Below are positions 1,316-30,965 of a DNA stretch of 64,000 nt, in pieces. The DNA is taken from the NCBI GenBank assembly GCA_963662685.1, contig OY759745.1:17752-81751 (forward strand), in the 5' to 3' direction. The DNA is from Bacteroidales bacterium (lineage in GTDB: Bacteria; Bacteroidota; Bacteroidia; Bacteroidales; VadinHA17). The notes under the pieces were generated by a model, which was not told where the DNA came from, ran no database searches, and saw nothing but the letters and a program-made list of their open reading frames with translations. The position numbers were made by a program, and so were the translations under genes. Within the stretch, counting starts at the first letter, position 1. Every line of letters starts with the position of its first letter.

Positions 1316-1750
1316 TTATTTAACAAGCGATACCACACCAACGCCAGATCCTTTCTTGGTCCCTGTAAAATCAAAGCTTATCTGGTATATCCCACTTTTA
1401 TTACAAATAAAATCCACTGTACTGTAAGCTTTGCCGGTTTTAGCATCATATGAAGTTAAAACCAGCTTACTGTCATCATTATCCAGATTAAGTATCATCT
1501 GCTCGGGAGAATCATCAGTAGTACACATGGTAAACCTGTATTTCATGTCCTTCCAGAGTGATATATTTGCCTTGTACCTGAATTCGTTCCCACCATTATA
1601 TTCACCAAGTATTATCATGTAATCCTTGATGTACTTGGCGTCACTTCCAGCATTCTCCATACATTTACTGATAAGTAATTCGGTCGTTTGACAATAAGAT
1701 AACTGTCCCAATGCCAATATTGCCAATAATGTAAAAAGTAGTTTTTTCAT
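1316..1750 (-). CDS. Small secreted protein with a PPC-like (pre-peptidase C-terminal-like) beta-sandwich pattern; paralog of 30309-30821
   Basis: The 144-aa ORF has a signal peptide (MKKLLFTLLAILALGQLSYCQ). Its C-terminal blocks YRFTMC...ILNLDNDDSKLVLTS...FICNKSGIYQISFDF...GSGVGVVSL align by eye with 30309-30821. Confidence 0.6.
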   Translation of the reverse strand: MKKLLFTLLAILALGQLSYCQTTELLISKCMENAGSDAKYIKDYMIILGEYNGGNEFRYKANISLWKDMKYRFTMCTTDDSPEQMILNLDNDDSKLVLTSYDAKTGKAYSTVDFICNKSGIYQISFDFTGTKKGSGVGVVSLVK

Positions 1751-1885
1751 ATCATCTTATTTTGATTTCCATGTTTTGATAATAGGCATGTTATTAAAAG
1801 CTGTTCCCTTTATTGGTGCCATAACTCCAGAATCTGGGTAAAAACTGTTTGTCATATCATTAATTGCATATTTTATTTATATGGA

Positions 1886-4800
1886 TTACCCATTGTTCTT
1901 CATCCTGCCCAAACCTGAGATCAGCTTTCCCAATAAATCATAATACAGCGTTATAAAAAGGATCATGGACATAATCCATATTACTATCAAATTGAAAACA
2001 AGTGTGCTCACCTGCTCTCCTGCCACATATTTGTTAGGAGCGAAAAAATGGGATCTAAGTGAGAATAGTCCCGGCTCAGAGGGATTCAGAAAAATTGGCT
2101 CAAAATTCCGAAACAGATAATCCCCTTCTCTCTTGATTTTGTCGGTAACAGTAGCCTTTCTGACAATATCAGAAAGGAACTCGTTGTAATAACTTTCACG
2201 GAATTGAACATACCCACCATTACCGGAATACTCATTCTGAAGAAACTCAATAAGTTCATTCTTTTTCTTATTTGCCGCATTATAAACCTTTACATACTTC
2301 TCATCTAAAGCGGCCAAATAAGAGAGAGCCTCATTTCCCGCACTTCCATCAAATCCATCCGGATCAAATGATTTAATGTCTATAACCGGTATATCATCAT
2401 TACGTTGAATCAGGGTAATAAATTCATTCCTCAGAAGGTCAAGGTCATTGTTAAATCCAGCATCAACTCTTTTACCAACAGCGTTTACGGCAGATACAGA
2501 TCTGTTAATGATTTTCTGCAATTCCGGAATATAAAAGGATTGGAAATAATATGCTTCACTCTCGATCTGTTCTATTTCAAAAAAGTTCTGTTCATACCTG
2601 TTACTCCGGAACTGAGTAACCGCAAGAGCCTCATAAGACCATCTTGATGCCATAATATCAGATAGAACCGGTGTGGTGTTTTTGTTTCCTCCAAATGATT
2701 TACTGATCTTATCGAAATTGAACATAGCTCCACCCAGGGCCATTTGGGGTATCACGAGTAATGGTATAAGAATATAGATCGTTACCGCTGAATCAAATGC
2801 CGATGATATATTCAATCCCAGCATATTAGCGAAACATGACACCGAAAACAATACAATCCAGTATTCAAATGACAATCCTTTTATTTCAAGTATTGTATTG
2901 CCAACAAATACAAAAATAACCATTTGTATGGCGGACAGAGTGAACAGTATCACTATTTTTGATAGTATATAACTCAATCTGGATAGATTCAGAAATCTCT
3001 CCCTTTTCAGTATTTTTCTGTCCTTGAATATCTCTTCGGCACTCACTGACAAACCAATAAACAGAGCTATAATTATGCTCATAAAAATATAAGGAGGAAT
3101 ATTCTCATTTTCGCTGAAGACATAATGATTTCTGTTATCTGGGATATATTTAATGATCATGGTCAGAAAAACAGCCATTATCGGAGCCTCAAGGAGGCTT
3201 ATAAGCACATATTGCAGGTTACTTATTTTAGAAAGGACATCTCTCTTAATAAACAAACCCGTTTGTTTGAATTTACCGGGGATTTTGAATGTTTTAGGCG
3301 GTAAAGCTTTTGTCTCTTCAACATTCTTTATTCTGAAATTGTTCAAGAACAACCGGTTCCATTCATCAGGTTCTTTGATCCTGTGTTCCGTGAACTGGCC
3401 GAATTCATCCACTTCTCTCGATTCAATTATGTTAAATAACAGTTCAGGATTAACATTTCCGCAAGCATAACACTCTCCCACCTCAGAATTTACCTGCTGT
3501 GCCTCCTTTTTGAAATACATTACAGATTCTATAGGATTACCATAATAAATGGGGTATCCTCCCCTATCAAGAAGCAGCAGGCTGTCAAACATTTTAAATA
3601 TATCTGAAGAAGGCTGGTGAATAACAACAAATACCAGTTTCATCTGAAGTGATATTTCTTTGAGTAAATCCATGACATTCTCTGAATCCCTGGAAGAAAG
3701 ACCCGAAGTCGGTTCATCAACAAAAAGAACCGAAGGTTCCCTGATAATTTCAAGAGCTATGTTCAATCTCTTTCTCTGCCCTCCGCTTATTTTCTTATTA
3801 AGAGGACCTCCGACCTTGATATCCTTGATATCCAGAAGTCCAAGCGTTGAAAGTGTTTTGTTGACGAGTTCGGTAATCCCGCCATCATCCAGATTACTGA
3901 AACACAATTTTGAGTTATAATAAAGATTTTCGAATACCGTAAGATCTTCGATCAAAAGATCATCCTGGGATATATACCCGATCATACTTTTTGTCTCGTC
4001 TATATTTCTATGTATGTCCAGACCATTTAATACAACACTTCCTTCGCAAGGTTTTTCAATTCCTGACAGCACATTTAGAAGTGTTGTTTTGCCCGATCCA
4101 CTGGCTCCCATGATGCCAATAAGACCAAATTCTTCTGAAATATTGATTTTTTTGAGACCAATGACACCATTGGGAAACCTGTATACCAAATTGTTGGCCT
4201 TAAAAGAGAGCATGTTCTTACTCTCAGTCCGGAGAAACCTTGAAACAACATCATTATAATATACAGTTCCTTTGGGCATCCTTATGGTACTTCCATTGGG
4301 AAACAGGTATATTTTGTTGGTGTTGAACAACTGCCCGTTCAAAAAGATTTCGCTTGATCCGTTATATTTGACAAAGTAGAGATCGGCGCTTTTTATACGC
4401 ATGAAAACCATAGAATTATCAAATAAAATATGATCTTTGACATACATATCTCCATCAAGACCTTCGATGTCAGATGTATTGTTACGGATTATCAATATCT
4501 CACGGAGGTTTACCTGGTCCGGCCTTATGTTTCTGATAAAACCATTGATCAGGTTAAGTTCTTCTGTTTTGATATTGAATACCTCAGATACAGTGGATAT
4601 GATTCCTATACGCTGCCCTGTAAAAGACTGTTCGGTCATAAGCATTTCATAAAGCCTGATAAGCACTATTACTTTTTGCCCATGGGTCAGTGTTTTATTT
4701 ATTTTACGACATATTGCCAGAGTCTTGACAGAATCTTTTACAGTGGTTAGCCTGCCAACACTTTTCTCTGGTTCCTTTTTGGCATGAGACTCGTCATCAA

Positions 4801-4963
4801 CTTTGCTGTCATACAGAGAGAGATACTCCTGCACTTTCTGGTCATTCAACTGCGTTGAAAGAAAGGTCTCGACAAACTTCCTTTGGTTGACCGTAGAGCC
4901 ATCGTCCTGTTTGGAAATGATAGCGAACAACTGCATCAGTGCTTTTAATATCTCTTCGCTCAT
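1886..4963 (-). CDS. ABC transporter, fused ATPase + ABC-2-type permease (ABCG-like), with an N-terminal TerB-like helical region and an FHA-like domain
   Basis: ATPase motifs: Walker A GASGSGKTTLLNVLSG, signature ISGGQRKRLNIA, Walker B VLFVDEPTSGLS. Multiple TM helices follow the NBD. The N-terminal ~270 aa contain VKYNGSSEIFLNGQLF...LFPNGSTIRMPKGTVYY, which resembles the FHA core (STNGTxVNG...GDxIxIG). The FHA call is a weaker inference. Confidence 0.85.
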   Translation of the reverse strand: MSEEILKALMQLFAIISKQDDGSTVNQRKFVETFLSTQLNDQKVQEYLSLYDSKVDDESHAKKEPEKSVGRLTTVKDSVKTLAICRKINKTLTHGQKVIVLIRLYEMLMTEQSFTGQRIGIISTVSEVFNIKTEELNLINGFIRNIRPDQVNLREILIIRNNTSDIEGLDGDMYVKDHILFDNSMVFMRIKSADLYFVKYNGSSEIFLNGQLFNTNKIYLFPNGSTIRMPKGTVYYNDVVSRFLRTESKNMLSFKANNLVYRFPNGVIGLKKINISEEFGLIGIMGASGSGKTTLLNVLSGIEKPCEGSVVLNGLDIHRNIDETKSMIGYISQDDLLIEDLTVFENLYYNSKLCFSNLDDGGITELVNKTLSTLGLLDIKDIKVGGPLNKKISGGQRKRLNIALEIIREPSVLFVDEPTSGLSSRDSENVMDLLKEISLQMKLVFVVIHQPSSDIFKMFDSLLLLDRGGYPIYYGNPIESVMYFKKEAQQVNSEVGECYACGNVNPELLFNIIESREVDEFGQFTEHRIKEPDEWNRLFLNNFRIKNVEETKALPPKTFKIPGKFKQTGLFIKRDVLSKISNLQYVLISLLEAPIMAVFLTMIIKYIPDNRNHYVFSENENIPPYIFMSIIIALFIGLSVSAEEIFKDRKILKRERFLNLSRLSYILSKIVILFTLSAIQMVIFVFVGNTILEIKGLSFEYWIVLFSVSCFANMLGLNISSAFDSAVTIYILIPLLVIPQMALGGAMFNFDKISKSFGGNKNTTPVLSDIMASRWSYEALAVTQFRSNRYEQNFFEIEQIESEAYYFQSFYIPELQKIINRSVSAVNAVGKRVDAGFNNDLDLLRNEFITLIQRNDDIPVIDIKSFDPDGFDGSAGNEALSYLAALDEKYVKVYNAANKKKNELIEFLQNEYSGNGGYVQFRESYYNEFLSDIVRKATVTDKIKREGDYLFRNFEPIFLNPSEPGLFSLRSHFFAPNKYVAGEQVSTLVFNLIVIWIMSMILFITLYYDLLGKLISGLGRMKNNG

Positions 4964-5050: not shown

Positions 5051-5434
5051 TTAAGCCGGAGAGTAGGGAATCAAATCAAAAGGAACCTCTACTATTTCCG
5101 AATATTCTTCACCAGCCTCCTGCATGTCAGTGTCTGACTCAGGATAGTGCCATATAACCTTTATATCAGAACCTGAATCCTTTATATCCTCAAGTTTCAG
5201 AAAAATATCAAGTAATAATTTTGACGACGCTGTATTAAAATATTCAAGTTTTATAGAAAGCTCCATTGTTGTTATTGGATTGTCCATCAATTCGTCAAAC
5301 CAATCCATAATCGGTTTATAAAATAATACCACATCTTCCGGAAGAGATCTTCCGGATATTTCAAAAACCCTGTTCTCCCTGTCCAGAACGACATTGGGAG
5401 TATCCTCCGTGGAGGCAATGTTTATTGTTTCCAT
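5051..5434 (-). CDS. siaC: SiaC-like regulatory phosphoprotein (DUF1987 family)
   Basis: The 127-aa ORF begins TPNVVLDRENRVFEISGRSLPEDVVLFYKPIMDWFDEL and carries LEYFNTASSKLLLDIF, with a Thr at residue 68. It sits in an operon with a PP2C phosphatase and SiaB-like kinases. Confidence 0.75.
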   Translation of the reverse strand: METINIASTEDTPNVVLDRENRVFEISGRSLPEDVVLFYKPIMDWFDELMDNPITTMELSIKLEYFNTASSKLLLDIFLKLEDIKDSGSDIKVIWHYPESDTDMQEAGEEYSEIVEVPFDLIPYSPA

Positions 5435-5451: not shown

Positions 5452-6027
5452 TTATTTGTTCACGCTTATCATCAATGAAAATGTCGAGACATGGTCGTCA
5501 ATCCCCTCAATCATATAATCAAGCTTATTCTCTGATTTTCTGGCTATGTCAATTAACCCTATACCCGCTCCGGCCTTTTCTGAAAAAGAGTTGCCCAGCC
5601 TTGCCTCTTTGTACAGTTTTTTTAATCCATCCTTATCAAGACTGTTTATATGATCGATTCTTTCGCTTATCCATGATACTTTACTGTTCAGGATCAGATT
5701 ACTGGATATCAAGATATAGCAGTCAGATGTAACGCCTATCATGAAAACCGAGGAAGATGCGTTAGGTACAAGATCATAGTTTATTTTGTTTTTACTGATA
5801 TTCTGTAATACTTCAACCATTATATTGAATACCTTTCGTCTGGTATTATCCTCAACATTATCGGCTTTGAACTTCCTTTCGATAAACGACAACAGGGTCT
5901 TATTCAGTTCCTGCGAGAATTCTCCCGAATAAGCCAGCATAACATCCTTATCGTTTATCAGCTTGTAAAAACTATATATTGATGTTATCTGTCTGTTGCT
6001 TGATGTTACTTTTATTTCATTTTCCAT
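5452..6027 (-). CDS. SiaB-like Ser/Thr kinase (GHKL/anti-sigma-kinase-like ATPase), copy 2
   Basis: The 191-aa ORF has the N-terminal block MLAYSGEFSQELNKTLL and a C-terminal G-box-like KAGAGIGLIDIARKS. It is a paralog of 6040-6597. Confidence 0.7.
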   Translation of the reverse strand: MENEIKVTSSNRQITSIYSFYKLINDKDVMLAYSGEFSQELNKTLLSFIERKFKADNVEDNTRRKVFNIMVEVLQNISKNKINYDLVPNASSSVFMIGVTSDCYILISSNLILNSKVSWISERIDHINSLDKDGLKKLYKEARLGNSFSEKAGAGIGLIDIARKSENKLDYMIEGIDDHVSTFSLMISVNK

Positions 6028-6039: not shown

Positions 6040-6597
6040 TTAATAATCAACCCTTGTGCTCAATGAGAAGAAAAAATGTTCTCCGTCTATCTTTTCAAAC
6101 GCGAAATCAATGGCGTTTCCGGTTTTTCTCGCTATTTGGATGAGGCCCAGGCCAAATCCAGATTTACCGGCAACGGTATCATGCTTCAAAAGATTTTTGC
6201 CAAACTCCTTGAGTTCATCTTCGTCCATCATGTTAATCCTTGCCAGCTTATCTTTGAGATCAATCACCTTTTGACGGACAATAACGTTACCACTGTTAAT
6301 GACATATCCATCTTCATTTTTACCTATCATAAAAAGATTTGAGCGACTGTATTTATCTTTCTCACTATGTTGGGTTATGTTCTGCAAACATTCGACCATT
6401 ACCGAAAATACCCTGGCCTTTGTCGTGTGGCTTGAATTAGAATGATTTAACTTGCTCTCTGTAAGATTCAGGAGCGCTATTACGATATCCTGTGACATCT
6501 CTCCCCTGTAACATAGCATAAGCCTGTCATTGTTCATATGGTCTCTTACCGCATTGACATAGCCAAGGTCTGACTGATTTATATCCCCCATTTTCAT
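6040..6597 (-). CDS. SiaB-like Ser/Thr kinase (GHKL/anti-sigma-kinase-like ATPase), copy 1
   Basis: The 185-aa ORF has MLCYRGEMSQDIVIALL and KSGFGLGLIQIARKTG. Its start overlaps the stop of the PP2C gene by 4 nt (6594-6597). Confidence 0.7.
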   Translation of the reverse strand: MKMGDINQSDLGYVNAVRDHMNNDRLMLCYRGEMSQDIVIALLNLTESKLNHSNSSHTTKARVFSVMVECLQNITQHSEKDKYSRSNLFMIGKNEDGYVINSGNVIVRQKVIDLKDKLARINMMDEDELKEFGKNLLKHDTVAGKSGFGLGLIQIARKTGNAIDFAFEKIDGEHFFFSLSTRVDY

Positions 6598-11392: not shown

Positions 11393-11412
11393 CCCAGGTA
11401 TTTTTACCTGGG
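11393..11412. promoter_or_regulatory. Perfect 20-bp palindrome CCCAGGTA-TTTT-TACCTGGG (core CAGGTA-N4-TACCTG), candidate operator about 160 bp upstream of cheR2
   Basis: Read directly at 11393-11412. The same 16-bp core recurs at 19062-19077 and 30950-30965, each in the non-coding region heading a minus-strand gene block. Confidence 0.45.
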
Positions 11413-11517
11413 AATAAGGGTGTTTTTTCTTGTGTGCTGGTTCCAATAAGAGGTTATCTTTACCGTTACGTTTTGTTATTTTAAATGACACTAAAAATTT
11501 AGGGTTAGATTTATTGA

Positions 11518-24814: not shown

Positions 24815-25180
24815 TCAGTTAAGCACCTTGTAAATAGCGCTTATAAGCTTGGCGGGTACAAAAGGTTTAATGATCCACCCAGTAGCACCGGCATCCCTGG
24901 CTTCAAGTTTCTTTTCCACCTGAGATTCGGTGGTAAGGAACAAAATAGGAATCAGCTTATAGTTCTCGTTATTTCTAACTGCCTTAATCAGCTCAATACC
25001 ATTCATAACTGGCATGTGTAAATCAGTTATAATAAGATCAATCTTATCGCCGTTAAGGAATTTAAGAGCGTCGTGTCCGTTAATCCCCACTTTTACCTTG
25101 AACCCCTCGTTCTCTAGAGTAAAAGAGACCACTTCTCTTATACTCTCTGAATCATCTACGATTAAAATAGTTCGTTCCAT
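24815..25180 (-). CDS. cheY: CheY single-domain response regulator
   Basis: ILIVDDSE, IITDLHMPVMNG, LFLTTES and WIIKPF: all receiver signature residues are present. Confidence 0.9.
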   Translation of the reverse strand: MERTILIVDDSESIREVVSFTLENEGFKVKVGINGHDALKFLNGDKIDLIITDLHMPVMNGIELIKAVRNNENYKLIPILFLTTESQVEKKLEARDAGATGWIIKPFVPAKLISAIYKVLN

Positions 25181-25198: not shown

Positions 25199-25525
25199 TT
25201 ATTGCCTAATGTTTATCATGTCCCCAAATCCGGTATTACACATAAGATCAACCACATAAATTTCATCATCGCAATTAATCAACAACGATTGCCCCATATC
25301 TGCCAACTTTTTTCGATATGAGTAAAGCACCTGTATGCTGGTCAGGTCATATGAATCTATATTTCTAAGGTCAATTACGACATTGCTCCCATCCGGGTTC
25401 AACGATTCAAGGGCATGTTTCAGATTAATTATTTCCTTTACTGCGATATCGCCCTCAAGTTTAATATGATAAAGGTTATCGCTTTCATTTGTACCCGATT
25501 GTATTTTGAATCCTGTATTACTCAT
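25199..25525 (-). CDS. STAS-domain protein (anti-sigma-antagonist-like)
   Basis: The 108-aa ORF has the pattern IKLEGDIAVKEI...VVIDLRNIDSYDLTSIQVLYSYRKKL. The Ser in IDS sits at the position phosphorylated in SpoIIAA/RsbV-type proteins. Confidence 0.7.
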   Translation of the reverse strand: MSNTGFKIQSGTNESDNLYHIKLEGDIAVKEIINLKHALESLNPDGSNVVIDLRNIDSYDLTSIQVLYSYRKKLADMGQSLLINCDDEIYVVDLMCNTGFGDMINIRQ

Positions 25526-25537: not shown

Positions 25538-27322
25538 TTAAAACAGCTCTATATCATAATCATCCGTATTATCCTTCGCGGAAATGCTATCGGTGAAACC
25601 ATCGTTTATAACCTGATCATGAACAATCCTTTCGCTAGCTACCGTATAAAACACTTCCATCTCTTTGAGATTCTTCTCTTTCAGACTTTTACAACTACTT
25701 TCCCCATCTTTTTTCAACCGATAGTTAATCATATCTAACTTGCCAATAATATTAGCCAGAAGTTTTTCGAATAATTCATTATAATCGGCCTGGTTCAATA
25801 TGTTCTTCAGACGATCCATAACGTCTTTCTTGATGCTTCCATTCTCAACTATAACTGCATCCATATTTTTGCCTTCAACATCAAGCTGATCAAGTACTTT
25901 ACTGACTTTGACCATGACTTTTATCTGTTCTTCTTCAAGAGAGGTCCTAAAACCCGAATTATCGAACTTAACCTGGAATGCTTCCGATAATCCTCTAAAC
26001 TCTGACAATTCCTTCTCCATTTCAGAATTTTTTTCGAAAATATCTCCGATCAATGATGCTATTTGAACCACTATATTGGGCTTTTCTGCAGCATTATTCC
26101 TTGAAAAAACACTTATAGGTATTCCCGGTTCAAGATTTTTCAAAGGCCTAGTCAATGATTTATTCGCTTTATCGCAAACCTTATCGACCAAACCCCTAAT
26201 ACTAAGCAAGTCAGCATTAAATATATTCGAATTGTATTCATCAAGAACCATAAGGAACCTGTCGAGCCGACCTTTCACGACATTTAATAGAGTTGTCCCG
26301 GAATCGGATTCATCCAGAGAAAATTCATGCGAAACCGTTGATACCATAGTAATATCACCAGCAATCTTCTGGAAATTCCGGGAAATGACATCAAGGGCAT
26401 TCTGATACTCCTTTGAGATAAGAATCAGTTGAGCCGACTGGAGTCCGGAAAGGTCGGCTATAAGCGACAATATATCATCATCATCGCTGATAATTATGTC
26501 GCCGCCATGTTCATCAAGCTTAGCCACCAGTTTCGCCGTGATTTTCTCGTGCGACTCATGGATATGCTCTATTTTCTGCCTTATTATATCATGATACTGC
26601 AGGTGCTTGATAATATTGGCAATAGAATCTGTCGTACTTTTCAACTTTTCCCTGATTTCTGGAACATACATCCTTGATTCCATCTTTTTCTTTTTTATCA
26701 ATGAAATAGACGATTTCAGTTCTTCAAAAAAAACCGCATTTATGGCAATACATTTTTGTGAATGCGACCTTACGGCATCGTTCAGAGTTTCCAGTTTTTT
26801 TCTGACAATAACAGTATGCTCATCGAGTACCGTCAAACAGGCAAGAATACCGTCAACATACTTTTCCCATCTGTTTATTTCACCCAAAGCAATAACCGAC
26901 AGCTCCTCGTTTCTTGAAATGACTTTATAATTTGAGAACAGAAATTTCAGTGTCAGCATATCCTGCTTCATATTTCTTATCAGCAACAAAATACTATCAG
27001 CCTTAGCGTTAAGCTTTGACTCTGTCATAAGATTTACATCCAGTTCATTCTCGGTGCCAGATCTGAAATCAACATATTCATCAAATATGTCGTACAATTC
27101 GGATGAAAAAGAGTAATCACCGTTATCCGCTATCGAATCAAATATATGTGTCGCATTGGACGTAACTGTGTTATTCTTTTTAGAATAGTCTTTCAGAAAA
27201 CTATTTAAATGCATAAACACCTGCGATGAACTGTCATATAGTTCACGGATTATCAAGTCAATATCATGAAAGACTCCAAGAAGCTCTCCAATTTTAATAT
27301 ACCTGTCGTCCTGTTTCAACAT
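25538..27322 (-). CDS. Hypothetical 594-aa helical protein with an HDxxxQ motif and an acidic C-terminal tail
   Basis: The ORF has no TM helix or signal peptide. The central segment is IIKHLQYHDIIRQKIEHIHESHEKI and the C-terminus is ...KDNTDDYDIELF. It sits 12 nt upstream of the STAS gene. Confidence 0.8.
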   Translation of the reverse strand: MLKQDDRYIKIGELLGVFHDIDLIIRELYDSSSQVFMHLNSFLKDYSKKNNTVTSNATHIFDSIADNGDYSFSSELYDIFDEYVDFRSGTENELDVNLMTESKLNAKADSILLLIRNMKQDMLTLKFLFSNYKVISRNEELSVIALGEINRWEKYVDGILACLTVLDEHTVIVRKKLETLNDAVRSHSQKCIAINAVFFEELKSSISLIKKKKMESRMYVPEIREKLKSTTDSIANIIKHLQYHDIIRQKIEHIHESHEKITAKLVAKLDEHGGDIIISDDDDILSLIADLSGLQSAQLILISKEYQNALDVISRNFQKIAGDITMVSTVSHEFSLDESDSGTTLLNVVKGRLDRFLMVLDEYNSNIFNADLLSIRGLVDKVCDKANKSLTRPLKNLEPGIPISVFSRNNAAEKPNIVVQIASLIGDIFEKNSEMEKELSEFRGLSEAFQVKFDNSGFRTSLEEEQIKVMVKVSKVLDQLDVEGKNMDAVIVENGSIKKDVMDRLKNILNQADYNELFEKLLANIIGKLDMINYRLKKDGESSCKSLKEKNLKEMEVFYTVASERIVHDQVINDGFTDSISAKDNTDDYDIELF

Positions 27323-27339: not shown

Positions 27340-29304
27340 CTAAAAGAGATCTACCGATATCTGTTGGGCGAAAATCGTGAATGTCTCATTGTTTCCTACC
27401 TTCGCCCTTGTTAATGTGACCAGCATGTCATAATCCCTGCCGTCTTCACTGACCCAGCTTACCTCAGTCCTTACACCCAACTCCCTTTGTTCTCCGTTTA
27501 TTCCCGAATATGCGGTATATGAACCGTTCTTCTGTTCGAGTTTAAGCGGAATGATATCCTCTATCATTCTGCCCATGATGGTACTGCGCTGAATGCCCCA
27601 GGTCTCTTCGGCAGTTTTATTGAAATATTCTATCTTGCCTGTATGGTCAAAGCTTATCACACTATCAACACACCCCTCAAGAATAGCGATATTTTTTGCC
27701 TTTTCCGTCTCTATATCAATGATCTTTTTCTTAAGTCCGGTACTCGCCTCTTCTAATTTTTCGCTCAGGTTCTGTTTAATATCTTCAAGCTCACGAGTAT
27801 ATACCTGAAGTTTATCTCCCTGCATCCTGAGTTCCTCTGCCTGTCTCTTCGTCTCCAGTTCAACGTTCTTTTTCTCAGTAATATCAGTAGCCAGGGCAAT
27901 CACCTTATATGGTATACCATCCTTATTCAACGCTGGTGTATAAGACGCATTCAGCCATATCTCACGACCGGTTCTGGTCACTCTCTTGAAATCGCCACTT
28001 TGAAGCTTTCCAGTGACCAACTGTTTCCAGAATTCGTTATAAAATTCTATTGGTTCATTGGATTTGTCCGCGAATATCCTGTCTGTCTGGTTTACTATCT
28101 CTTCAATGGAATACCCCATCATGTCAAGAAACTTATTGTTGGCGTCAATTATCCTTCCCGACATATCGAATTCAACAGTAGCGATGGTATTGTTTATGGC
28201 AGTGAAAATACCGATTCTCTCAACTTCCCGCTGCTGCATCTCCTCCTGTGTAGCGTTCATCTCCTCCATGCTCTGACGCAACTCTTCCTCCTGTGTACGT
28301 AGCTCCTCGGTCAGCTTTTGGGAGTCCTGAAGCAACTTCTTTGTTTGCTTGTTGATGTTAGTCCGTGAGATGGTTGACGCGACAATCTCCGCCAGTCTCT
28401 CTACGAACTCTATTTCGAATGGTTCAAATTGTCTGAAAGAGGCAAACTCCATAACCCCAAAAAGCTCCTCGTTAAATAGTAACGGAACTATCAAAATGCT
28501 TGTAGGATTGGCATCTCCGAGCCCTGAAGTAATTTTTATAAAGCTATCAGGAACATCGATAAGATAGATCGTACCCTTCTCTATAGCAGCCTGTCCTATC
28601 AACCCTTCACCAATCTTAATTTTTTTGGAGATATATTTTTTTCTGTTCCATGCATAAACAGAAACCATCTCAAGAAAGGGGTCGTCCTTATTATCGTTAT
28701 TAAAAAGATACATTGCCCCCTGATTTACGGCAAGGTATTTGATCAGATCCGACAGAAACCTATCAAACAAGACTTTAAGATCGTCAACATTATCCCTCAA
28801 TATGGCTCCAAACCTGGCAATACCTTCTGTTGACCATTGTGCCCGGGCATCTTCTGTCACAAGCTTGTGGAGTTTATCCCTCATACCCTTAATTGAGTAT
28901 CCCAACTTATCATCTTCACTCAATACAACATATTCTATATTGAAATTTCCGTCGCCAATCTTTTCCAGAAAATCGGCCTGTTCAAACTGATTCTTAACGA
29001 TCAAGTTGATATATTGAGAGATATTGCCAAACTCATCCTTGCTTTCAAGTTTTATCTTGGCGTCAAGATCGCCTACCGAGATCATCCGCAACACTCTCTC
29101 TATCTCCTTGACAGGAATATAAATGTATCTGTGTATAATTCTGTATACAAGGTACAATGCGATCATCCATATTGCCAGCACTATTATTAAAGACGAAACC
29201 TGTCCGTAAATTGCCGGCAGGGAGATATTTCTAAGAACGAACACAACACCACTGATAATAATAACCAGTAATAATGCCAATATTAGATTGATCTTCGATC
29301 GCAT
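27340..29304 (-). CDS. Membrane sensor: 2 TM, HAMP, GAF, coiled coil, PAS, PAS, with no recognisable output domain
   Basis: HAMP: PVKEIERVLRMISVGDLDAKI. GAF: GQAAIEKGTIYLIDVPDSFIKITSGLGDANPTSILIVPLL...VMEFASFRQF. Two PAS-like segments follow. The protein ends right after the second PAS (...QQISVDLF). Confidence 0.8.
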   Translation of the reverse strand: MRSKINLILALLLVIIISGVVFVLRNISLPAIYGQVSSLIIVLAIWMIALYLVYRIIHRYIYIPVKEIERVLRMISVGDLDAKIKLESKDEFGNISQYINLIVKNQFEQADFLEKIGDGNFNIEYVVLSEDDKLGYSIKGMRDKLHKLVTEDARAQWSTEGIARFGAILRDNVDDLKVLFDRFLSDLIKYLAVNQGAMYLFNNDNKDDPFLEMVSVYAWNRKKYISKKIKIGEGLIGQAAIEKGTIYLIDVPDSFIKITSGLGDANPTSILIVPLLFNEELFGVMEFASFRQFEPFEIEFVERLAEIVASTISRTNINKQTKKLLQDSQKLTEELRTQEEELRQSMEEMNATQEEMQQREVERIGIFTAINNTIATVEFDMSGRIIDANNKFLDMMGYSIEEIVNQTDRIFADKSNEPIEFYNEFWKQLVTGKLQSGDFKRVTRTGREIWLNASYTPALNKDGIPYKVIALATDITEKKNVELETKRQAEELRMQGDKLQVYTRELEDIKQNLSEKLEEASTGLKKKIIDIETEKAKNIAILEGCVDSVISFDHTGKIEYFNKTAEETWGIQRSTIMGRMIEDIIPLKLEQKNGSYTAYSGINGEQRELGVRTEVSWVSEDGRDYDMLVTLTRAKVGNNETFTIFAQQISVDLF

Positions 29305-29366: not shown

Positions 29367-30272
29367 TTATTGATTGTAAATGAGCCGGGAACGTATTTCC
29401 CTTACAAGATTAGCGACTTCATCAACCTGTTCGTACGAGATCATGGCCTTTGAAGTACTTTTATCTACTATCACCAGCCTGCCATCAATCTCAACAGCCT
29501 CTGGCTCCCGATATTCATATGATATTGTTATTTCAGAGTAAAGATACTTAAGGTCGTTCATATCAGCCAGAATATCTATGAAATAACTATCTTCCGAGTA
29601 AGCCGATAGCCCCAGGATAAGTTGGTCTATAATAGCTTTCTGATGACCAATCCATTGCATGATATCGTCATTATTCCGTATCATATAATTCTGAGACGCG
29701 ATGTAAAGACCCTCAAGCCACGTACCAAAAACCATCAATATACTCATGTTACTTCTTTTCTTGGAACGCAGGAAAGAATCCATGTTATTGAAATTAATGG
29801 TTGTCAGATAAATGAGAGAATCCATCTGGGAACTGTTCGATGCCATCCGTTTGATTGTCGCGAAATCAAAAAACTGGCCTATATCTATATCGTCCGCCAG
29901 TTTTTGAATAGTGCCCAGATAGTTTATCATCAAATATGTCTTTTCATAAATATTGATATATCCCATATCAGCGCTGTAAACGCCAAGTCCCAGGGCTTTG
30001 GACATATCGTTGGTATAAAGCTGAATGTTATCAATATCATTAAGAAACTCCTCCTCAAAATCAATCCCGTTGTGCTCAAGAACCATCGCAATCTCTATAG
30101 GAGATGGAATTGATTCTATTATTTCATTCATAGATTCTTCCGAAATCTCCAGATTCTCAGATTCTTCAGCGAGTAAGGAATCGATGGAGAGTTTATCATT
30201 ATTTGCTTGTCTCCCTCCACATGCTGATAACAAAATAGCTATAGCGACTAAAAAAACGATTTTTATCTTCAT
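29367..30272 (-). CDS. Hypothetical lipoprotein
   Basis: The lipobox MKIKIVFLVAIAILLSAC appears if translation starts at the ATG at 30272; the track start at 30302 adds 10 aa. I recognise no family. Confidence 0.65.
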   Translation of the reverse strand: MKIKIVFLVAIAILLSACGGRQANNDKLSIDSLLAEESENLEISEESMNEIIESIPSPIEIAMVLEHNGIDFEEEFLNDIDNIQLYTNDMSKALGLGVYSADMGYINIYEKTYLMINYLGTIQKLADDIDIGQFFDFATIKRMASNSSQMDSLIYLTTINFNNMDSFLRSKKRSNMSILMVFGTWLEGLYIASQNYMIRNNDDIMQWIGHQKAIIDQLILGLSAYSEDSYFIDILADMNDLKYLYSEITISYEYREPEAVEIDGRLVIVDKSTSKAMISYEQVDEVANLVREIRSRLIYNQ

Positions 30273-30308
30273 GAATATATAATTTGAAATTTCCGAAACC
30301 ATTTTTAT

Positions 30309-30821
30309 TTATTGTTTTATTCCAAGGATGCACATCCCACATCCTGATTTTGAATTCTTAAACTGTACCCTCATGTAATAAAGTCCTGTAGCCGAGCATA
30401 AAAACTTCAGATTCGAAAAAACCTCGCCATCTTCCCGGCAAGTAGAGGCTATAAGCCTGTCTTCCCGGTCATAAAGATTGATTATAATATTAGCACTGCT
30501 CTCCTCCTTCCCTTCACACGCTATAATTATATACTCCGCTCCTTCACTGAATACATAATAGAGTTCAGACTTATCCATTTTTCTCTTACTGGAAACAAAT
30601 GATTGAATATAGTGGTACTCCTCCAGATTGACGGAACAGCTATGTAGAAATGCCCCCGTATCACACTGCCCATATGAAGTATATGAAAAAAGAAAGGCAC
30701 ACATAAATACACAGATTGTATATAAACATCCCCGGCTTTTATCCAAATACCCTCTATTCAATGAATAACTCTCCATGTATTTAATTTTCATCTCAGATTT
30801 TTTTCGCATAAATTTTGGCAT
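30309..30821 (-). CDS. Small secreted PPC-like protein, paralog of 1316-1750 (start codon uncertain)
   Basis: Hydrophobic leader ...CVFMCAFLFSYTSYGQ. Blocks YIIIACEG...IIINLYDREDRLIAST...FLCSATGLYYMRVQF...GCGMCILGI align by eye with 1316-1750. Confidence 0.55.
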   Translation of the reverse strand: MPKFMRKKSEMKIKYMESYSLNRGYLDKSRGCLYTICVFMCAFLFSYTSYGQCDTGAFLHSCSVNLEEYHYIQSFVSSKRKMDKSELYYVFSEGAEYIIIACEGKEESSANIIINLYDREDRLIASTCREDGEVFSNLKFLCSATGLYYMRVQFKNSKSGCGMCILGIKQ

Positions 30822-30949
30822 TACAATAATGTAAGCTAATCACAAACATGTCAAAATTAGTCCCTATGTATTCTATTCATAGAGGAGAATACACTCGATT
30901 TAAAAAAACCATCACCTAATTAATTAACCGTATATATACTGGAGATTTC

Positions 30950-30965
30950 CAGGTAATAATACCTG
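30950..30965. promoter_or_regulatory. Palindrome CAGGTA-ATAA-TACCTG, candidate operator about 135 bp upstream of the first gene of the supercluster
   Basis: Read directly. A candidate -7 box (TAATTTTG on the minus strand) lies at 30852-30859. Confidence 0.4.

What the first reader, a model, noticed from the sequence alone, without database searches (positions are those of the whole stretch)
1316..30965. About 30 kb single-strand chemosensory + partner-switch + exporter supercluster in a Bacteroidota-type genome
Seen: every credible ORF from 30821 down to 1316 is on the minus strand. Spacers are mostly under 100 nt, and there are several overlaps or near-abutments (6594/6597, 9790/9806, 21256/21278, 21762, 15786/15789). 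Only two larger non-coding gaps occur (18845-19130 and 11243-11738), which gives three apparent units. The content is a complete Che core (2 MCP, CheW, CheA, CheY, CheR, CheB, CheD). Added to it are STAS, a HAMP-GAF-PAS sensor, a 594-aa HDxxxQ protein, a His-less kinase, two unknown paralogs and TonB-C. After those come a second CheR, a REC-less CheB, GAF, a PP2C, 2 SiaB-like kinases, a SiaC-like protein and an ABC exporter. Established: this gene set defines a chemosensory pathway, and Bacteroidota are non-flagellated gliders in which Che pathways are uncommon. No flagellar, pilus or CheC/X/Z genes are in the window. Inference: this is an alternative-function chemosensory pathway whose read-out is a Ser/Thr partner switch and possibly an exporter. 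At least six members have no assignable family, so the combination looks undescribed.
Basis: partly seen in the sequence, partly recalled or inferred. Interest (0 to 1): 0.85.

Follow-up and report, generated by a model that had tools for sequence, protein, structure and literature searches.

The report
Chemosensory cluster wired to SiaABC-like switch
A roughly 32-kb, one-strand gene cluster conserved in about 20 uncultured Bacteroidales species joins a complete chemotaxis-type sensing pathway to a SiaABC-type phosphorylation switch and an ABC transporter, which suggests a chemosensory array that controls a membrane pump rather than a motor.

Summary
Every credible gene from 30821 to 1316 is on the minus strand, with the stated overlaps and two larger gaps. 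The domain calls hold: 2 MCP, CheW, CheA, CheY, CheR, CheB, CheD, STAS, HAMP-GAF-PAS, TonB_C, a second CheR, a REC-less CheB, GAF, PP2C, 2 SiaB-family kinases, SiaC and an ABCG-like transporter. Six ORFs have no family.

In 15 of 18 informative species-level loci, all MAGs, the Che genes lie directly upstream of CheR2-(CheB2)-GAF-PP2C-SiaB-SiaB-SiaC-ABC.

Three further links tie the parts together:
- A shared GAF module in three proteins.
- A palindrome, CAGGTA-N4-TACCTG, in front of all three units and in relatives.
- Conserved LuxR-type regulators upstream, so the cluster extends to about 33127.

The combination is not wholly undescribed. Gammaproteobacterial F7 clusters carry STAS and a Ser phosphatase. 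In P. aeruginosa, siaABCD (PA0169-72) abuts cheB (PA0173).

New here:
- An ABC transporter sits in SiaD's place.
- A second CheR/CheB pair is present.
- The histidine kinase has its canonical His replaced by Asn.
- The 594-aa protein belongs to a large uncharacterised family.

Signal flow is inferred, not shown. I rate this a new variant of a known kind.

The parts
32456..33127 (-). LuxR/GerE-type response regulator (LuxR2). It is a conserved upstream member of the neighbourhood.
   Evidence: Pfam Response_reg plus GerE. Orthologs at 65-69% identity sit upstream of the u170-u311-HGP654-u594 genes in L082, L093, L097, L101 and L104.
31100..31798 (-). Second LuxR/GerE-type response regulator.
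   Evidence: Pfam Response_reg plus GerE. L082 also carries two such genes.
30950..30965 (.). Palindrome CAGGTAATAATACCTG, 5' of unit 1.
   Evidence: One of only 3 matches to CAGGTA-N4-TACCTG in the window, against 0.07 expected. Variants lie upstream of u170, HGP654 or LuxR2 in L085, L097, L088, L098, L087, L096 and L082.
30309..30821 (-). 170-aa protein of unknown family with a hydrophobic N-terminal segment, possibly exported (u170). It is a weak paralog of u144.
   Evidence: No Pfam or NCBIfam match. BLASTP against u144 gives E 1e-8 over 64 aa. Orthologs at 42-46% identity occupy the same position in six loci.
29367..30302 (-). 311-aa lipoprotein-like protein of unknown family (u311).
   Evidence: No family match; there is a Cys after the hydrophobic N-terminus. 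Orthologs at 48-61% identity are syntenic.
27340..29304 (-). TM-HAMP-GAF-PAS sensor (HGP654), with a possible second PAS domain seen only in relatives. It has no catalytic output domain and ends in ..ISVDLF.
   Evidence: Pfam HAMP, GAF and PAS. Its linker-GAF-coiled-coil module is 32% identical to that of the PP2C protein (E 1e-39). The C-terminus ..IS[VIM]DLF is kept in 18 of 19 clade-A orthologs; L082 ends ..ISVDFF.
25538..27322 (-). 594-aa all-helical protein (u594). It is the signature accessory protein of this Che type. It carries the invariant motif LQYHDIIRQKIEH and an acidic C-terminus ending ..ELF.
   Evidence: 71 homologs and no Pfam match. Invariant columns are listed. AF2 model: pLDDT 77, helical, with a disordered tail at 578-594. 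No fold match (TM <= 0.3). 481 representative clusters at E <= 1e-30. It always lies just upstream of STAS-CheY-CheA.
25199..25525 (-). Single-domain STAS protein.
   Evidence: Pfam STAS. A 100-130-aa ORF lies between u594 and CheY in the large majority of 49 candidate loci, and it shares the motif D-[LIV]-[ST]-x-x-Q.
24815..25180 (-). CheY, a single-domain receiver.
   Evidence: Pfam Response_reg, 97 bits. Orthologs are 68-88% identical.
22674..24707 (-). CheA (P1 Hpt, P3, P4, P5).
   Evidence: Pfam. The best matches among solved structures are E. coli and T. maritima CheA.
21762..22643 (-). Soluble HisKA-type kinase (HKn) whose canonical His is replaced by Asn.
   Evidence: Pfam HATPase_c 95 bits, HisKA weak. 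The H-box reads K-[ST]-H-F-[IV]-x-[NS]-[IV]-[TA]-N-E-I-x-N-P-F in all 17 sequences; the His at -7 and the N, G1, F and G2 boxes are kept. The C-terminal Phe is conserved.
21256..21762 (-). CheD.
   Evidence: Pfam CheD, 85 bits.
20226..21278 (-). 350-aa protein of unknown family (u350).
   Evidence: 46% identical to u342. Only 3 database proteins were found. Homologs at 24-58% identity lie between CheD and CheB in L001-L006, L020 and L094 only.
19131..20207 (-). CheB (REC plus methylesterase).
   Evidence: Pfam.
19062..19077 (.). Palindrome CAGGTATTTTTACCTG in the gap 5' of unit 2.
16967..18871 (-). Membrane MCP with a Cache sensor and two HAMP domains. It ends in NYERF.
   Evidence: Pfam. C-terminus.
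16370..16864 (-). TonB C-terminal domain protein. It appears to be an insertion specific to this window.
   Evidence: Pfam TonB_C, 77 bits. No homolog in any related locus.
15789..16319 (-). CheW.
   Evidence: Pfam CheW, 122 bits.
13798..15786 (-). Membrane MCP with a 4HB sensor and two HAMP domains, heptad class 34H. It ends in DYEKF.
   Evidence: Pfam. Alignment to Tsr (36H) shows one 7-residue deletion on each arm.
12860..13687 (-). CheR.
   Evidence: Pfam CheR plus CheR_N.
11739..12767 (-). 342-aa paralog of u350 (u342).
11395..11410 (.). Palindrome CAGGTATTTTTACCTG in the gap 5' of unit 3.
   Evidence: The same element lies in the CheB-CheR2 gap of L002 and L016 (exact) and of L005 and L020 (one mismatch).
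10409..11242 (-). Second CheR (CheR2).
   Evidence: Pfam CheR, 129 bits. The SAM-binding motif ACSTGEE is present. CheR2 is kept even in the L010-L012 lineage, which lacks adjacent Che core genes.
9790..10380 (-). CheB-type methylesterase without a receiver domain (CheB2). The start is probably an internal ATG.
   Evidence: Pfam CheB_methylest, 137 bits, with no REC. The Ser/His/Asp triad motifs GGSAGS, LHR and NSDG are present.
9213..9806 (-). Stand-alone GAF protein (GAF197).
   Evidence: Pfam GAF. 39% identical to the GAF of the PP2C protein.
6594..9203 (-). SiaA-like phosphatase: TM-GAF-PAS-PAS-PP2C (SpoIIE family).
   Evidence: Pfam. The only solved-structure match of its PP2C domain is P. 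aeruginosa SiaA, 6K4E (E 5e-30). About 90 orthologs at 49-72% identity.
6040..6597 (-). SiaB-family kinase 1.
   Evidence: NF038262, 154 bits. The only solved-structure match is chain A of 6KKO, the P. aeruginosa SiaB-SiaC complex (E 2e-15). The depositor label on that chain is 'putative serine phosphatase'; I read it as SiaB from its 181-aa length and from being co-deposited with the DUF1987 SiaC chains.
5452..6027 (-). SiaB-family kinase 2.
   Evidence: DUF6272, 124 bits. 37% identical to kinase 1. The two are fused into one ORF in L016, L017 and L021.
5051..5434 (-). SiaC-family phosphoprotein.
   Evidence: PF09345, 134 bits. Matches P. aeruginosa SiaC, 6KKO_C / 7E6G (E 4e-14), and the Thr of SiaC's LNTSS motif aligns. 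That this Thr is the phosphorylated T68 is from memory. YFNTASSK is invariant in all 21 sequences aligned: the window plus 20 loci, of which L001 and L002 are the same genome.
1886..4963 (-). ABCG-like half-transporter (NBD plus ABC-2 membrane domain) with a roughly 270-aa N-terminal extension. The extension is a TerB-like helical domain followed by a beta-rich domain.
   Evidence: Pfam ABC_tran and ABC2_membrane; TIGR00955, 227 bits, below its cutoff. TerB hits in 12 of 13 orthologs, best E 1e-5. It directly follows SiaC in every relative locus whose contig reaches that far; in L009 it is fragmented.
1316..1750 (-). 144-aa protein of unknown family with a signal-peptide-like N-terminus (u144).
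   Evidence: No family match. Orthologs at 48-72% identity follow the ABC gene in L002, L005 and L006.
2..1249 (-). PD40/TolB-like beta-propeller protein that runs off the window. It is syntenic only in the closest relatives, so membership of the system is doubtful.
   Evidence: Pfam PD40. 64-74% identical genes follow u144 in L002, L005 and L006.

Best explanation
This is one integrated, co-regulated signalling regulon. It is a non-motor chemosensory pathway whose downstream effector module is a SiaABC-type threonine-phosphorylation partner switch acting on an ABC transporter.

Shown:
- The gene content.
- The conserved order across many species.
- The homology of the switch proteins to P. 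aeruginosa SiaA, SiaB and SiaC.
- The shared GAF module.
- The shared palindrome.

Inferred mechanism:
1. Two membrane MCPs (class 34H, C-terminal x[YF]E[KR]F tether), CheW and CheA form an array. CheR, CheB and CheD adapt it.
2. CheA phosphorylates CheY and CheB. No motor is present.
3. Three proteins found in every variant of this Che type modulate or relay CheY~P: the 594-aa helical protein, the STAS protein, and the kinase whose canonical His is Asn. That kinase keeps the E-x-x-N phosphatase motif and its ATP-binding boxes, and I take it to be a CheY~P phosphatase or sink.
4. The signal reaches the membrane GAF-PAS-PAS-PP2C protein (SiaA-like). The route is through the family of paralogous GAF modules (HAMP-GAF-PAS sensor, stand-alone GAF, PP2C sensor), through reversible methylation by the second, receiver-less CheR2/CheB2 pair, or both.
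5. The PP2C and the two SiaB-like kinases set the phosphorylation state of the invariant Thr of the SiaC-like protein.
6. As in Pseudomonas, where unphosphorylated SiaC binds and activates its neighbour SiaD, SiaC here binds the neighbouring protein. That neighbour is the TerB-like/beta N-terminal extension of an ABCG-like transporter, so SiaC switches export on or off.
7. All three transcription units carry the same palindromic operator. It is probably bound by the conserved LuxR-type response regulator encoded upstream.
For: Synteny:
- A second complete genome, L001/L002 (71% PP2C identity), has the whole set in compact order: HAMP-GAF-PAS, u594, STAS, CheY, CheA, CheW, MCP, CheR, kinase, CheD, u350, CheB | CheR2, CheB2, GAF, PP2C, SiaB x2, SiaC, ABC.
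- 20 species-representative MAG loci carry the 869-aa PP2C ortholog.
- In all 15 loci whose contig reaches upstream into coding sequence, Che genes (usually CheR, kinase, CheD and CheB) precede CheR2-(CheB2)-GAF-PP2C-SiaB-SiaB-SiaC-ABC.
- Contig-length matches add three metagenome contigs that carry both u594 and the PP2C.

Sia homology:
- The PP2C, SiaB-like and SiaC-like proteins each hit only the P. aeruginosa SiaA, SiaB or SiaC structures in the PDB.
- YFNTASSK is invariant in all 21 sequences aligned. It aligns with the Thr of LNTSS in P. aeruginosa SiaC.
- The SiaC literature proposes that DUF1987 proteins modulate adjacent proteins (PMC8457831).

Links between the parts:
- The GAF module is shared by HGP654 (in the Che part) and by PP2C and GAF197 (in the Sia part).
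- The palindrome CAGGTA-N4-TACCTG occurs 3 times in 64 kb (0.07 expected), once 5' of each unit.
- In 2.09 Mb of related loci there are 8 exact hits and 9 one-mismatch hits. Seven of the 8 exact hits (6 distinct sites, since L001 and L002 overlap) and 7 of the 9 one-mismatch hits lie in intergenic DNA upstream of cluster genes, including CheR2, HGP654, u170 and LuxR2.
- The LuxR-type regulator is conserved upstream at 65-69% identity.
- An ABCG-like 1012-aa homolog is also linked to the distant clade-B version of this Che type (L083, L122).

Precedent:
- F7 stage-1 clusters read STAS-cheY-cheA-cheW-cheW-aer2-cheR-cheD-cheB-mcpA-STAS-Ser phosphatase (PMC7184735).
- The Shewanella che1 locus carries the CrsR/CrsA partner switch (PMC9855816).
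- P. aeruginosa siaABCD is PA0172-PA0169 (PMC10714779), next to cheB PA0173 and PA0178/79 (PMC5812489).
Against: - No experiment or expression data exist. All organisms are uncultured MAGs.
- No protein with an obvious CheY-receiving or CheA-receiving domain sits in the Sia part. The PP2C has no REC domain, unlike CrsR-type phosphatases, so the physical link from Che to the switch is unknown.
- One lineage (L010-L012) has hemerythrin x2-CheR2-GAF-PP2C-SiaB-SiaB-SiaC-ABC with no Che core in the 1.2-3.3 kb available upstream. Unit 3 can therefore stand alone.
- Clade-B relatives of the Che part (L084, L113, L133 and others) show no PP2C, SiaB or SiaC within 10 kb. The Che type does not require the switch.
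- The N-terminal extension of the ABC protein could not be modelled (pLDDT 40) and has no FHA or other phosphopeptide-binding signature.
- The Ser directly after the conserved Asp, where anti-sigma antagonists are phosphorylated (from memory), is not conserved in the STAS family here.
Confidence: 0.55

Rival explanations
1. The Che core steers surface (gliding/T9SS-linked) or other motility in a classical tactic way. The Sia-like/ABC unit is a separate envelope or biofilm regulator that merely shares a regulon or island with it.
For: - The MCPs are ordinary membrane receptors with periplasmic Cache and 4HB domains and pentapeptide-like tails.
- A T9SS cargo gene is in the window.
- Unit 3 exists without adjacent Che genes in L010-L012.
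- The Che type exists without Sia genes in clade B.
Against: - No gliding, pilus or flagellar gene lies in the cluster or the window.
- The order Che-then-Sia-then-ABC is kept across proteins that have diverged to 48-72% identity.
- GAF modules and the palindrome are shared across the units.
- No known CheY target of gliding machinery exists (my knowledge).
Confidence: 0.2
2. The primary output is transcriptional. The variant kinase, autophosphorylating on the relocated His, or CheA itself, phosphorylates the conserved LuxR-type response regulators. These bind the palindrome and control the cluster and other genes. The Sia/ABC module is then one regulated target rather than a post-translational read-out.
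For: - LuxR-type RRs are conserved directly upstream.
- The palindrome lies upstream of every unit, and upstream of LuxR2 itself in L082.
- The kinase keeps an invariant His at -7 and all ATP-binding boxes.
- Kinases inside non-motility Che clusters are known, for example CheS3 (PMC3868531) and CrdS (PMC3147164).
Against: - The canonical phospho-acceptor His is Asn in all 17 sequences.
- Binding of the LuxR proteins to the palindrome is untested.
- This reading does not explain why a SiaABC-type switch, which acts post-translationally in Pseudomonas, is always attached in clade A.
Confidence: 0.15
3. The adjacency is a signalling-gene 'island' without functional coupling, so the three units work independently.
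For: - Two gaps of 286 and 496 nt split the region into three units.
- Gene content varies. The TonB_C gene and the second MCP-CheW-CheR block are rearranged relative to L001. Insertions occur between CheB and CheR2 in L006 and L016.
Against: - Order is conserved in 15 of 18 informative species-level loci.
- There are shared cis elements and shared GAF paralogs.
- The same Che-next-to-Sia arrangement occurs in a different phylum (PMC10714779, PMC5812489).
Confidence: 0.1

Closest known systems
P. aeruginosa SiaABCD partner switch (PA0172-PA0169) together with the adjacent Che2 cluster (PA0173-PA0180)
   Same: - The PP2C, SiaB-family kinase and SiaC-family phosphoprotein are homologous. Each is the only PDB hit.
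- The Thr of SiaC's LNTSS motif is kept. That this is the phosphorylated T68 is from memory.
- The switch genes follow a cheB gene directly (locus tags in PMC10714779 and PMC5812489).
- SiaC acts on the protein encoded next to it (PMC8457831).
   Different: - The neighbour of SiaC is an ABCG-like transporter with a TerB-like N-terminal extension, not a diguanylate cyclase.
- There are two SiaB paralogs, sometimes fused.
- The phosphatase sensor is TM-GAF-PAS-PAS.
- CheR2, a REC-less CheB2 and a stand-alone GAF are inserted between the Che and Sia parts.
- No functional Che2-Sia link was found in the literature searched.
- The relative orientation of the Pseudomonas genes is from memory, not checked.
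Ancestral (stage 1/2) F7 chemosensory clusters of gammaproteobacteria: V. cholerae cluster III, P. aeruginosa Che2, S. oneidensis Che1 with CrsR/CrsA
   Same: - The gene order STAS-cheY-cheA-cheW-MCP-cheR-cheD-cheB plus a serine phosphatase is the same (PMC7184735).
- CheD is present.
- The receptors bear a pentapeptide (PMC7698151 for Che2; here).
- The function is non-motility or unknown, with a partner-switch link (PMC9855816).
   Different: - The MCPs here are 34H membrane receptors, not 36H cytoplasmic Aer2-like receptors.
- Extra conserved genes are present: u594, the kinase with Asn at the canonical His position, HGP654 and u350.
- The phosphatase has no receiver domain.
- The phylum is different.
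- The CheA class was not assigned, because no class HMMs were available.
Non-motility (ACF-type) Che pathways with embedded kinases: R. centenum Che3/CheS3 and M. xanthus Che3/CrdS-CrdA
   Same: These are Che cores with an extra histidine-kinase-like protein and non-flagellar outputs (PMC3868531, PMC3147164).
   Different: Those kinases have a normal phospho-acceptor His and known response-regulator partners, and their output is developmental gene regulation. They have no SiaABC-type switch and no transporter.
CheZ (CheY~P phosphatase), as a functional analogy for u594
   Same: Both have long helical bundles, an Asp-x-x-x-Gln motif (D245/Q249, invariant), and a disordered acidic C-terminal peptide ending in Phe. 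The CheZ features are from my knowledge of E. coli CheZ.
   Different: u594 is three times larger and has no fold match.

Membership tests
Chemosensory (Che) pathway | CheA with P1 (Hpt), dimerisation, HATPase and CheW-like domains | tested here: met
   Pfam Hpt, H-kinase_dim, HATPase_c and CheW. PDB CheA hits up to E 6e-97.
Chemosensory (Che) pathway | MCP signalling domain proteins, CheW, and CheR plus CheB adaptation enzymes | tested here: met
   MCPsignal 121 and 114 bits, CheW 122 bits, CheR 204 bits, CheB 235 bits, CheD 85 bits.
Chemosensory class F7 (Wuichet-Zhulin scheme) | CheA/CheB/CheR grouping with F7 by class HMMs or phylogeny | not testable with these tools
   No class HMMs or reference proteobacterial sequences were available. 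Only the gene order could be compared (against PMC7184735).
Chemosensory class F7 (Wuichet-Zhulin scheme) | Associated receptors of heptad class 36H | tested here: not met
   Relative to Tsr (36H), the MCP lacks 7 residues on each arm, which makes it 34H.
SiaABC-type partner switch | SiaC/DUF1987 phosphoprotein with the conserved Thr | tested here: met
   PF09345, 134 bits. Aligns to P. aeruginosa SiaC with the Thr of LNTSS conserved (the T68 numbering is from memory). YFNTASSK is invariant in all 21 sequences aligned. The score is below the NCBIfam SiaC equivalog cutoff (87 against 150 bits), so this is family level, not an ortholog.
SiaABC-type partner switch | SiaB-family kinase | tested here: met
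   NF038262 subfamily, 154 bits against a cutoff of 85. The SiaB equivalog scores 87 bits, below its cutoff of 225. The PDB hit is 6KKO chain A, taken to be SiaB, at E 2e-15.
SiaABC-type partner switch | PP2C (SpoIIE-family) phosphatase related to SiaA, encoded just upstream | tested here: met
   SpoIIE, 58 bits. The only PDB hit is the SiaA PP2C domain, 6K4E, at E 5e-30.
SiaABC-type partner switch | Output is the diguanylate cyclase SiaD encoded next to SiaC | tested here: not met
   The gene after SiaC is an ABC_tran plus ABC2_membrane protein in every relative locus whose contig reaches that far. No GGDEF domain occurs in the cluster.
SiaABC-type partner switch | Thr phosphorylation of SiaC by SiaB and dephosphorylation by SiaA | not testable with these tools
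   This needs biochemistry.
HisKA-type histidine kinase (for the 293-aa protein) | Phospho-acceptor His in the H-box (H-E-x-x-T/N) | tested here: not met
   The canonical position is Asn in 17 of 17 sequences, with an invariant His 7 residues upstream.
HisKA-type histidine kinase (for the 293-aa protein) | Catalytic ATP-binding domain with N, G1, F and G2 boxes | tested here: met
   HATPase_c, 95 bits. All boxes are conserved.
CheZ (for the 594-aa protein) | Sequence or profile similarity to the CheZ family | tested here: not met
   No Pfam CheZ hit at E <= 10. hhalign probability 0.2%. No CheZ among the PDB profile or fold hits shown.
Anti-sigma-antagonist STAS (for the 108-aa protein) | STAS fold | tested here: met
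   PF01740, 25.4 bits against a cutoff of 22.6. The L083 ortholog also hits STAS.
Anti-sigma-antagonist STAS (for the 108-aa protein) | Conserved phosphorylatable Ser directly after the conserved Asp (feature recalled from SpoIIAA/RsbV) | tested here: inconclusive
   The window has D-S, but most family members have D-[LIV]-[ST].
ABCG/ABC-2 exporter | NBD followed by an ABC-2 type membrane domain in one polypeptide | tested here: met
   ABC_tran 99 bits at residues 280-420, ABC2_membrane 69 bits at 567-755. TIGR00955 scores 227 bits, below its cutoff. The direction of transport was not tested.

The most novel reading that the evidence does not exclude
A chemoreceptor array controls a membrane transporter post-translationally through a SiaABC-type Thr-phospho switch. 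A second, receiver-less CheR2/CheB2 pair methylates and demethylates non-MCP sensor proteins: the GAF-coiled-coil modules of the PP2C protein and of the HAMP-GAF-PAS protein. Those proteins, like u594, would be docked through conserved C-terminal hydrophobic-acidic-(Leu/Phe)-Phe peptides analogous to the MCP pentapeptide. If this is right, the ancestral output of this Che lineage, including the still unexplained Che2/F7 systems that sit next to siaABCD in Pseudomonas, would be a Ser/Thr partner switch rather than a motor.
Probability: 0.25. Interest if true: 0.85.

Novelty: new variant of a known kind. Interest (0 to 1): 0.68.

Why it matters
- The function of ancestral F7-type Che systems in Vibrio, Pseudomonas and Shewanella is described as still unknown (PMC7184735).
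- Finding the same Che-then-SiaABC arrangement conserved in a distant phylum, with a different effector in SiaD's place, argues that the partner switch is the pathway's output.
- It gives a directly testable prediction in a tractable organism: does Che2 control SiaC phosphorylation in P. aeruginosa?
- It extends the idea that SiaC/DUF1987 proteins regulate whatever is encoded next to them (PMC8457831) from a cyclase to a transporter.
- It flags a large uncharacterised protein family, u594, with at least 481 clusters at 50% identity, as a core accessory of a Bacteroidota chemosensory type.
- It also flags a kinase family with a relocated His.

Tried and rejected
1. u594 as a CheZ homolog. There was no Pfam hit at E <= 10, hhalign gave probability 0.2%, and PDB sequence and fold searches returned only generic coiled-coil matches. 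It is kept only as a motif-level analogy.
2. u594 as an HD-domain phosphohydrolase. The only signal was a sub-threshold HD hit (E 0.03, 15 bits), so I rejected it.
3. FHA-type phospho-Thr reader in the ABC N-terminus. There was no FHA hit in Pfam or in the PDB profile search.
4. Bacteroidetes-type promoter pattern TTTG-N17-23-TANNTTTG. It gave no hit in the cluster and is not enriched.
5. Rfam. Nothing but tRNA-Val was found, so there is no known riboswitch or leader in the gaps.
6. Exact-sequence look-up of the window's 342-aa protein. It is not on record, so the source genome was not identified. The closest genome is OY764960.1, a Bacteroidales MAG.
7. CheA class assignment. This was not possible. 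PDB comparison (E. coli 329 bits against T. maritima 275 bits, with different coverage) is not decisive.
8. Wuichet and Zhulin 2010 could not be opened.
9. Idea that the ABC N-terminal extension occurs only where SiaC is present. I dropped it, because the clade-B ABC homolog (L083) also has about 290 residues before its degenerate NBD.
10. The 80-aa ORF at 11249-11491. It has no family match and overlaps the conserved non-coding element, so I treat it as spurious.

Full report
**1. Observation**

From 30821 down to 1316, every ORF with a family match lies on the minus strand. Junctions are tight:
- SiaB1/PP2C overlap by 4 nt.
- CheD overlaps the 350-aa ORF by about 23 nt.
- The kinase and CheD share 1 nt.
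- MCP and CheW are 2 nt apart.

Only two long gaps occur, 18845-19130 and 11243-11738.

Gene order, 5' to 3' on the minus strand:

| Block | Genes |
|---|---|
| Unit 1 | u170, u311, TM-HAMP-GAF-PAS (HGP654), u594, STAS, CheY, CheA, HisKA-like kinase, CheD, u350, CheB |
| gap | |
| Unit 2 | MCP(Cache), TonB_C, CheW, MCP(4HB), CheR, u342 |
| gap | |
| Unit 3 | CheR2, CheB2 (no REC), GAF197, TM-GAF-PAS-PAS-PP2C, SiaB-family kinase x2, SiaC-family protein, ABCG-like transporter, u144 |

Six proteins (u170, u311, u594, u350, u342, u144) match no Pfam or NCBIfam family. u350 and u342 are paralogs (46% identity). u170 and u144, at the two ends, are weak paralogs (E 1e-8).

The rest of the window holds housekeeping genes, LarBCE-like genes and a T9SS CHU_C cargo protein. 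It has no flagellar or pilus genes.

**2. Is the combination conserved?**

The u342/u350 family is extremely rare, with 3 proteins in the 5.8-billion-protein index. One of them led to a 4.27-Mb Bacteroidales MAG chromosome (L001/L002, OY764960.1). It carries the whole set in a more compact order: HGP654, u594, STAS, CheY, CheA, CheW, MCP, CheR, kinase, CheD, u350, CheB | CheR2, CheB2, GAF, PP2C, SiaB, SiaB, SiaC, ABC, u144.

The PP2C protein has about 90 full-length orthologs at 49-72% identity. A scan of one genome per GTDB species found 20 loci with such an ortholog, all in Bacteroidales or Bacteroidota MAGs. I mapped every window protein onto these loci with BLASTP:
- In all 15 loci whose contig extends upstream, Che genes (usually CheR, kinase, CheD and CheB) directly precede CheR2-(CheB2)-GAF-PP2C-SiaB-SiaB-SiaC-ABC.
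- The ABC gene follows SiaC wherever the contig allows. In L009 it is fragmented.

The exception is one lineage (L010-L012). There, two hemerythrin-like genes and a porin precede CheR2-GAF-PP2C-SiaB-SiaB-SiaC-ABC, with no Che core in the 1.2-3.3 kb available. Unit 3 is therefore a separable module, and it keeps CheR2 even there.

**3. The Che part belongs to a wider, uncharacterised Che type**

u594 has 71 indexed homologs. In an exhaustive profile search it has 481 representative clusters at E <= 1e-30. Contexts from three look-ups and a metagenome scan fall into two groups.

- **Clade A** (u594 at 32% identity or more): LuxR-type RR, u170, u311, HGP654, u594, STAS, CheY, CheA...
- **Clade B** (u594 at 25-29% identity): RR, u594, STAS, CheY, CheA, CheW, CheR, kinase, CheD, CheB, GAF-PAS protein.
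  - An ABCG-like 1012-aa homolog lies nearby in L083 and L122.
  - L084 has a ParA-like gene and no Sia genes.

So u594, the STAS protein and the variant kinase are core accessories of this Che type. The Sia switch is a clade-A addition.

**4. Anatomy of individual parts**

- **MCPs.** Aligned with Tsr (36H), each arm lacks 7 residues, so the class is 34H. They end in x[YF]E[KR][FY]. This fits the C-terminal pentapeptide tether that is reported to be frequent in Bacteroidetes receptors (PMC7390727).
- **Kinase.** The canonical H-box His is Asn in all 17 sequences (motif K-[ST]-H-F-[IV]-x-[NS]-[IV]-[TA]-N-E-I-x-N-P-F), and an invariant His sits 7 residues upstream. The E-x-x-N motif and the N, G1, F and G2 boxes are intact. 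'His-less' is therefore only partly right.
- **u594.** The AF2 model (pLDDT 77) is all-helical with a disordered tail and has no informative fold match. The invariant motif is Q-Y-H-D-I-I-R-Q-K-I-E-H. The C-terminus [DE]-x-[LIV]-E-[LF]-F is kept in about 70 of 75 homologs down to 24% identity.
- **HGP654.** It ends in IS[VIM]DLF in 18 of 19 clade-A orthologs (L082 has ..ISVDFF) and in EVELF in clade B. The kinase also ends in Phe. Four families of the system thus carry conserved C-terminal peptides ending in Phe. This is suggestive of docking peptides, which is an inference.
- **GAF modules.** HGP654 and the PP2C protein share a paralogous linker-GAF-coiled-coil module (32% identity, E 1e-39). 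GAF197 belongs to the same GAF type (39%).
- **CheR2 and CheB2.** Both retain their catalytic motifs, read directly from the sequences.
- **Sia proteins.** The PP2C domain, SiaB1 and SiaC each hit only P. aeruginosa SiaA (6K4E, E 5e-30), the SiaB chain of 6KKO (2e-15) and SiaC (6KKO/7E6G, 4e-14) among all PDB sequences. The Thr of SiaC's LNTSS motif aligns (that it is the phosphorylated T68 is from memory). The surrounding YFNTASSK is invariant in all 21 sequences aligned. The two SiaB paralogs (37% identity) are fused in three loci.
- **ABC protein.** It is an NBD plus ABC-2 membrane half-transporter with a conserved N-terminal extension of about 270 residues. The first roughly 145 residues are TerB-like (12 of 13 orthologs, best E 1e-5). 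The beta-rich remainder is unassigned.

**5. A shared cis element**

Both large gaps and the region 5' of u170 contain the perfect palindrome CAGGTA-N4-TACCTG. There are 3 occurrences in 64 kb against 0.07 expected, and 0 of 100 shuffles reached 3. Similar downstream CAGGTG repeats follow it.

In 2.09 Mb of related loci there are 8 exact and 9 one-mismatch occurrences. Seven of the 8 exact hits (6 distinct sites, since L001 and L002 overlap) and 7 of the 9 one-mismatch hits lie in intergenic DNA upstream of cluster genes. These include CheR2 in L002, L016, L005 and L020; HGP654 in L088, L098, L087 and L096; u170 in L085 and L097; and LuxR2 in L082.

This supports co-regulation of all three units. 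The conserved LuxR-type regulators are the obvious candidate binders, which is an inference.

**6. Comparison with known systems**

- Ortega et al. describe the oldest (stage 1) F7 clusters as STAS, cheY, cheA, two cheW, aer2, cheR, cheD, cheB, mcpA, STAS, serine phosphatase, with unknown function (PMC7184735). This is essentially the order seen in L001.
- The Shewanella che1 locus carries the CrsR/CrsA partner switch for RpoS (PMC9855816).
- In P. aeruginosa, siaA-D are PA0172-PA0169 (PMC10714779). cheB is PA0173, with PA0178/PA0179 as the kinase/regulator pair (PMC5812489). The Sia switch therefore abuts the Che2 cluster there too.
- I found no paper linking Che2 and Sia functionally, none describing DUF6272 or SiaC-family proteins with Che genes, and none describing this Bacteroidota system.
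- SiaC is proposed to regulate whichever protein is encoded next to it (PMC8457831).

**7. Most likely mechanism**

This is one regulon in which a non-motor Che array feeds a SiaABC-type Thr-phospho switch. Its SiaC-like protein regulates the adjacent ABCG-like transporter through the transporter's N-terminal extension.

Shown: gene content, synteny, homology to SiaABC, shared GAF modules, shared palindrome.

Inferred: the direction of signal flow; the coupling step (GAF modules and/or CheR2/CheB2 methylation); the roles of u594 and the kinase in handling CheY~P; SiaC binding to the ABC protein; and LuxR binding to the palindrome.

Confidence is about 0.55. The rivals are:
- motility control with an independent Sia/ABC neighbour (0.2);
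- a mainly transcriptional output through the LuxR regulators (0.15);
- no functional coupling (0.1).

**8. Verdict**

Co-occurrence is demonstrated, but the read-out is inferred, and Che-plus-partner-switch clusters are not new in kind.

New here:
- an ABC transporter in SiaD's position;
- the second, receiver-less CheR/CheB pair and the GAF trio;
- a kinase family with a relocated His;
- the large uncharacterised u594 family;
- the conserved C-terminal peptides;
- the palindromic operator.

I rate it a new variant of a known kind, with interest 0.68. The main reason for the interest is that it suggests a testable answer to what ancestral F7/Che2-type systems do.

Noticed in passing
window 30950-30965, 19062-19077, 11395-11410: The perfect palindrome CAGGTA-N4-TACCTG lies 5' of each of the three transcription units (3 hits against 0.07 expected). 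It is followed by CAGGTG-like repeats. It is conserved upstream of cluster genes in many related loci, so it is probably an operator.
   Followed up: partly
window 31100-31798 and 32456-33127 (-): Two LuxR/GerE-type response regulators lie just upstream of the reported region. They belong to the conserved neighbourhood: orthologs at 65-69% identity occupy the same position in six other loci.
   Followed up: partly
C-termini of window 27340-29304, 25538-27322, 21762-22643, 16967-18871 and 13798-15786 (all -): Four protein families of the system end in conserved peptides terminating in Phe: HGP654 ..ISVDLF, u594 ..[DE]x[LIV]E[LF]F, kinase ..[VI]F, MCPs ..[YF]E[KR]F. They are possibly docking peptides for CheR, CheB or CheY.
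   Followed up: partly
L010, L011, L012 (upstream of CheR2; L012:1955-2885): One lineage has two hemerythrin-like genes and a porin in place of the Che core. They sit in front of CheR2-GAF-PP2C-SiaB-SiaB-SiaC-ABC, and CheB2 is missing. Unit 3 can therefore stand alone yet keeps CheR2.
   Followed up: partly
L016, L017, L021 (gene after PP2C): The two SiaB-family kinases are read as a single ORF of about 385 aa, which suggests they act as a heterodimer. Assembly error was not excluded.
   Followed up: no
L121, L123, L124, L131, L153, L159: u594 homologs at about 27% identity sit in contexts where no Che genes were detected within 10 kb. The family may not be restricted to Che clusters.
   Followed up: no
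window 2-1249 (-): A PD40/TolB-like beta-propeller gene runs off the left edge of the window. It follows u144 also in L002, L005 and L006, but homologs occur in unrelated Bacteroidota loci as well.
   Followed up: partly
window 16370-16864 (-): The TonB_C gene between the Cache MCP and CheW has no counterpart in any related locus. The whole unit 2 (MCP-TonB_C-CheW-MCP-CheR-u342) looks like a rearranged, partly duplicated block relative to the compact order in L001. L020 also has two u350 copies flanking CheR.
   Followed up: partly
L084:11821-12579: In the most distant relative of this Che type, a ParA/MipZ-like ATPase sits between u594 and the STAS-position ORF. This is reminiscent of the ParC/PpfA-type array-positioning proteins of other Che systems (from memory).
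   Followed up: no
L082:2539-3888: A tyrosine integrase and an HTH gene lie just upstream of the LuxR genes in the L006 genome. In the window a tRNA-Val (34201-34276) lies upstream of the LuxR genes. Possible mobility of the cluster was not examined.
   Followed up: no
window 38071-40800 (+): There are genes like LarC (Ni insertion), LarE (PP-loop/QueC-like) and LarB (AIR carboxylase-like), that is, a nickel-pincer cofactor set. They are unrelated to the finding.
   Followed up: no
window 11249-11491 (-): This 80-aa ORF has no family match and overlaps the conserved non-coding element in the gap upstream of CheR2. It is probably not a gene.
   Followed up: partly
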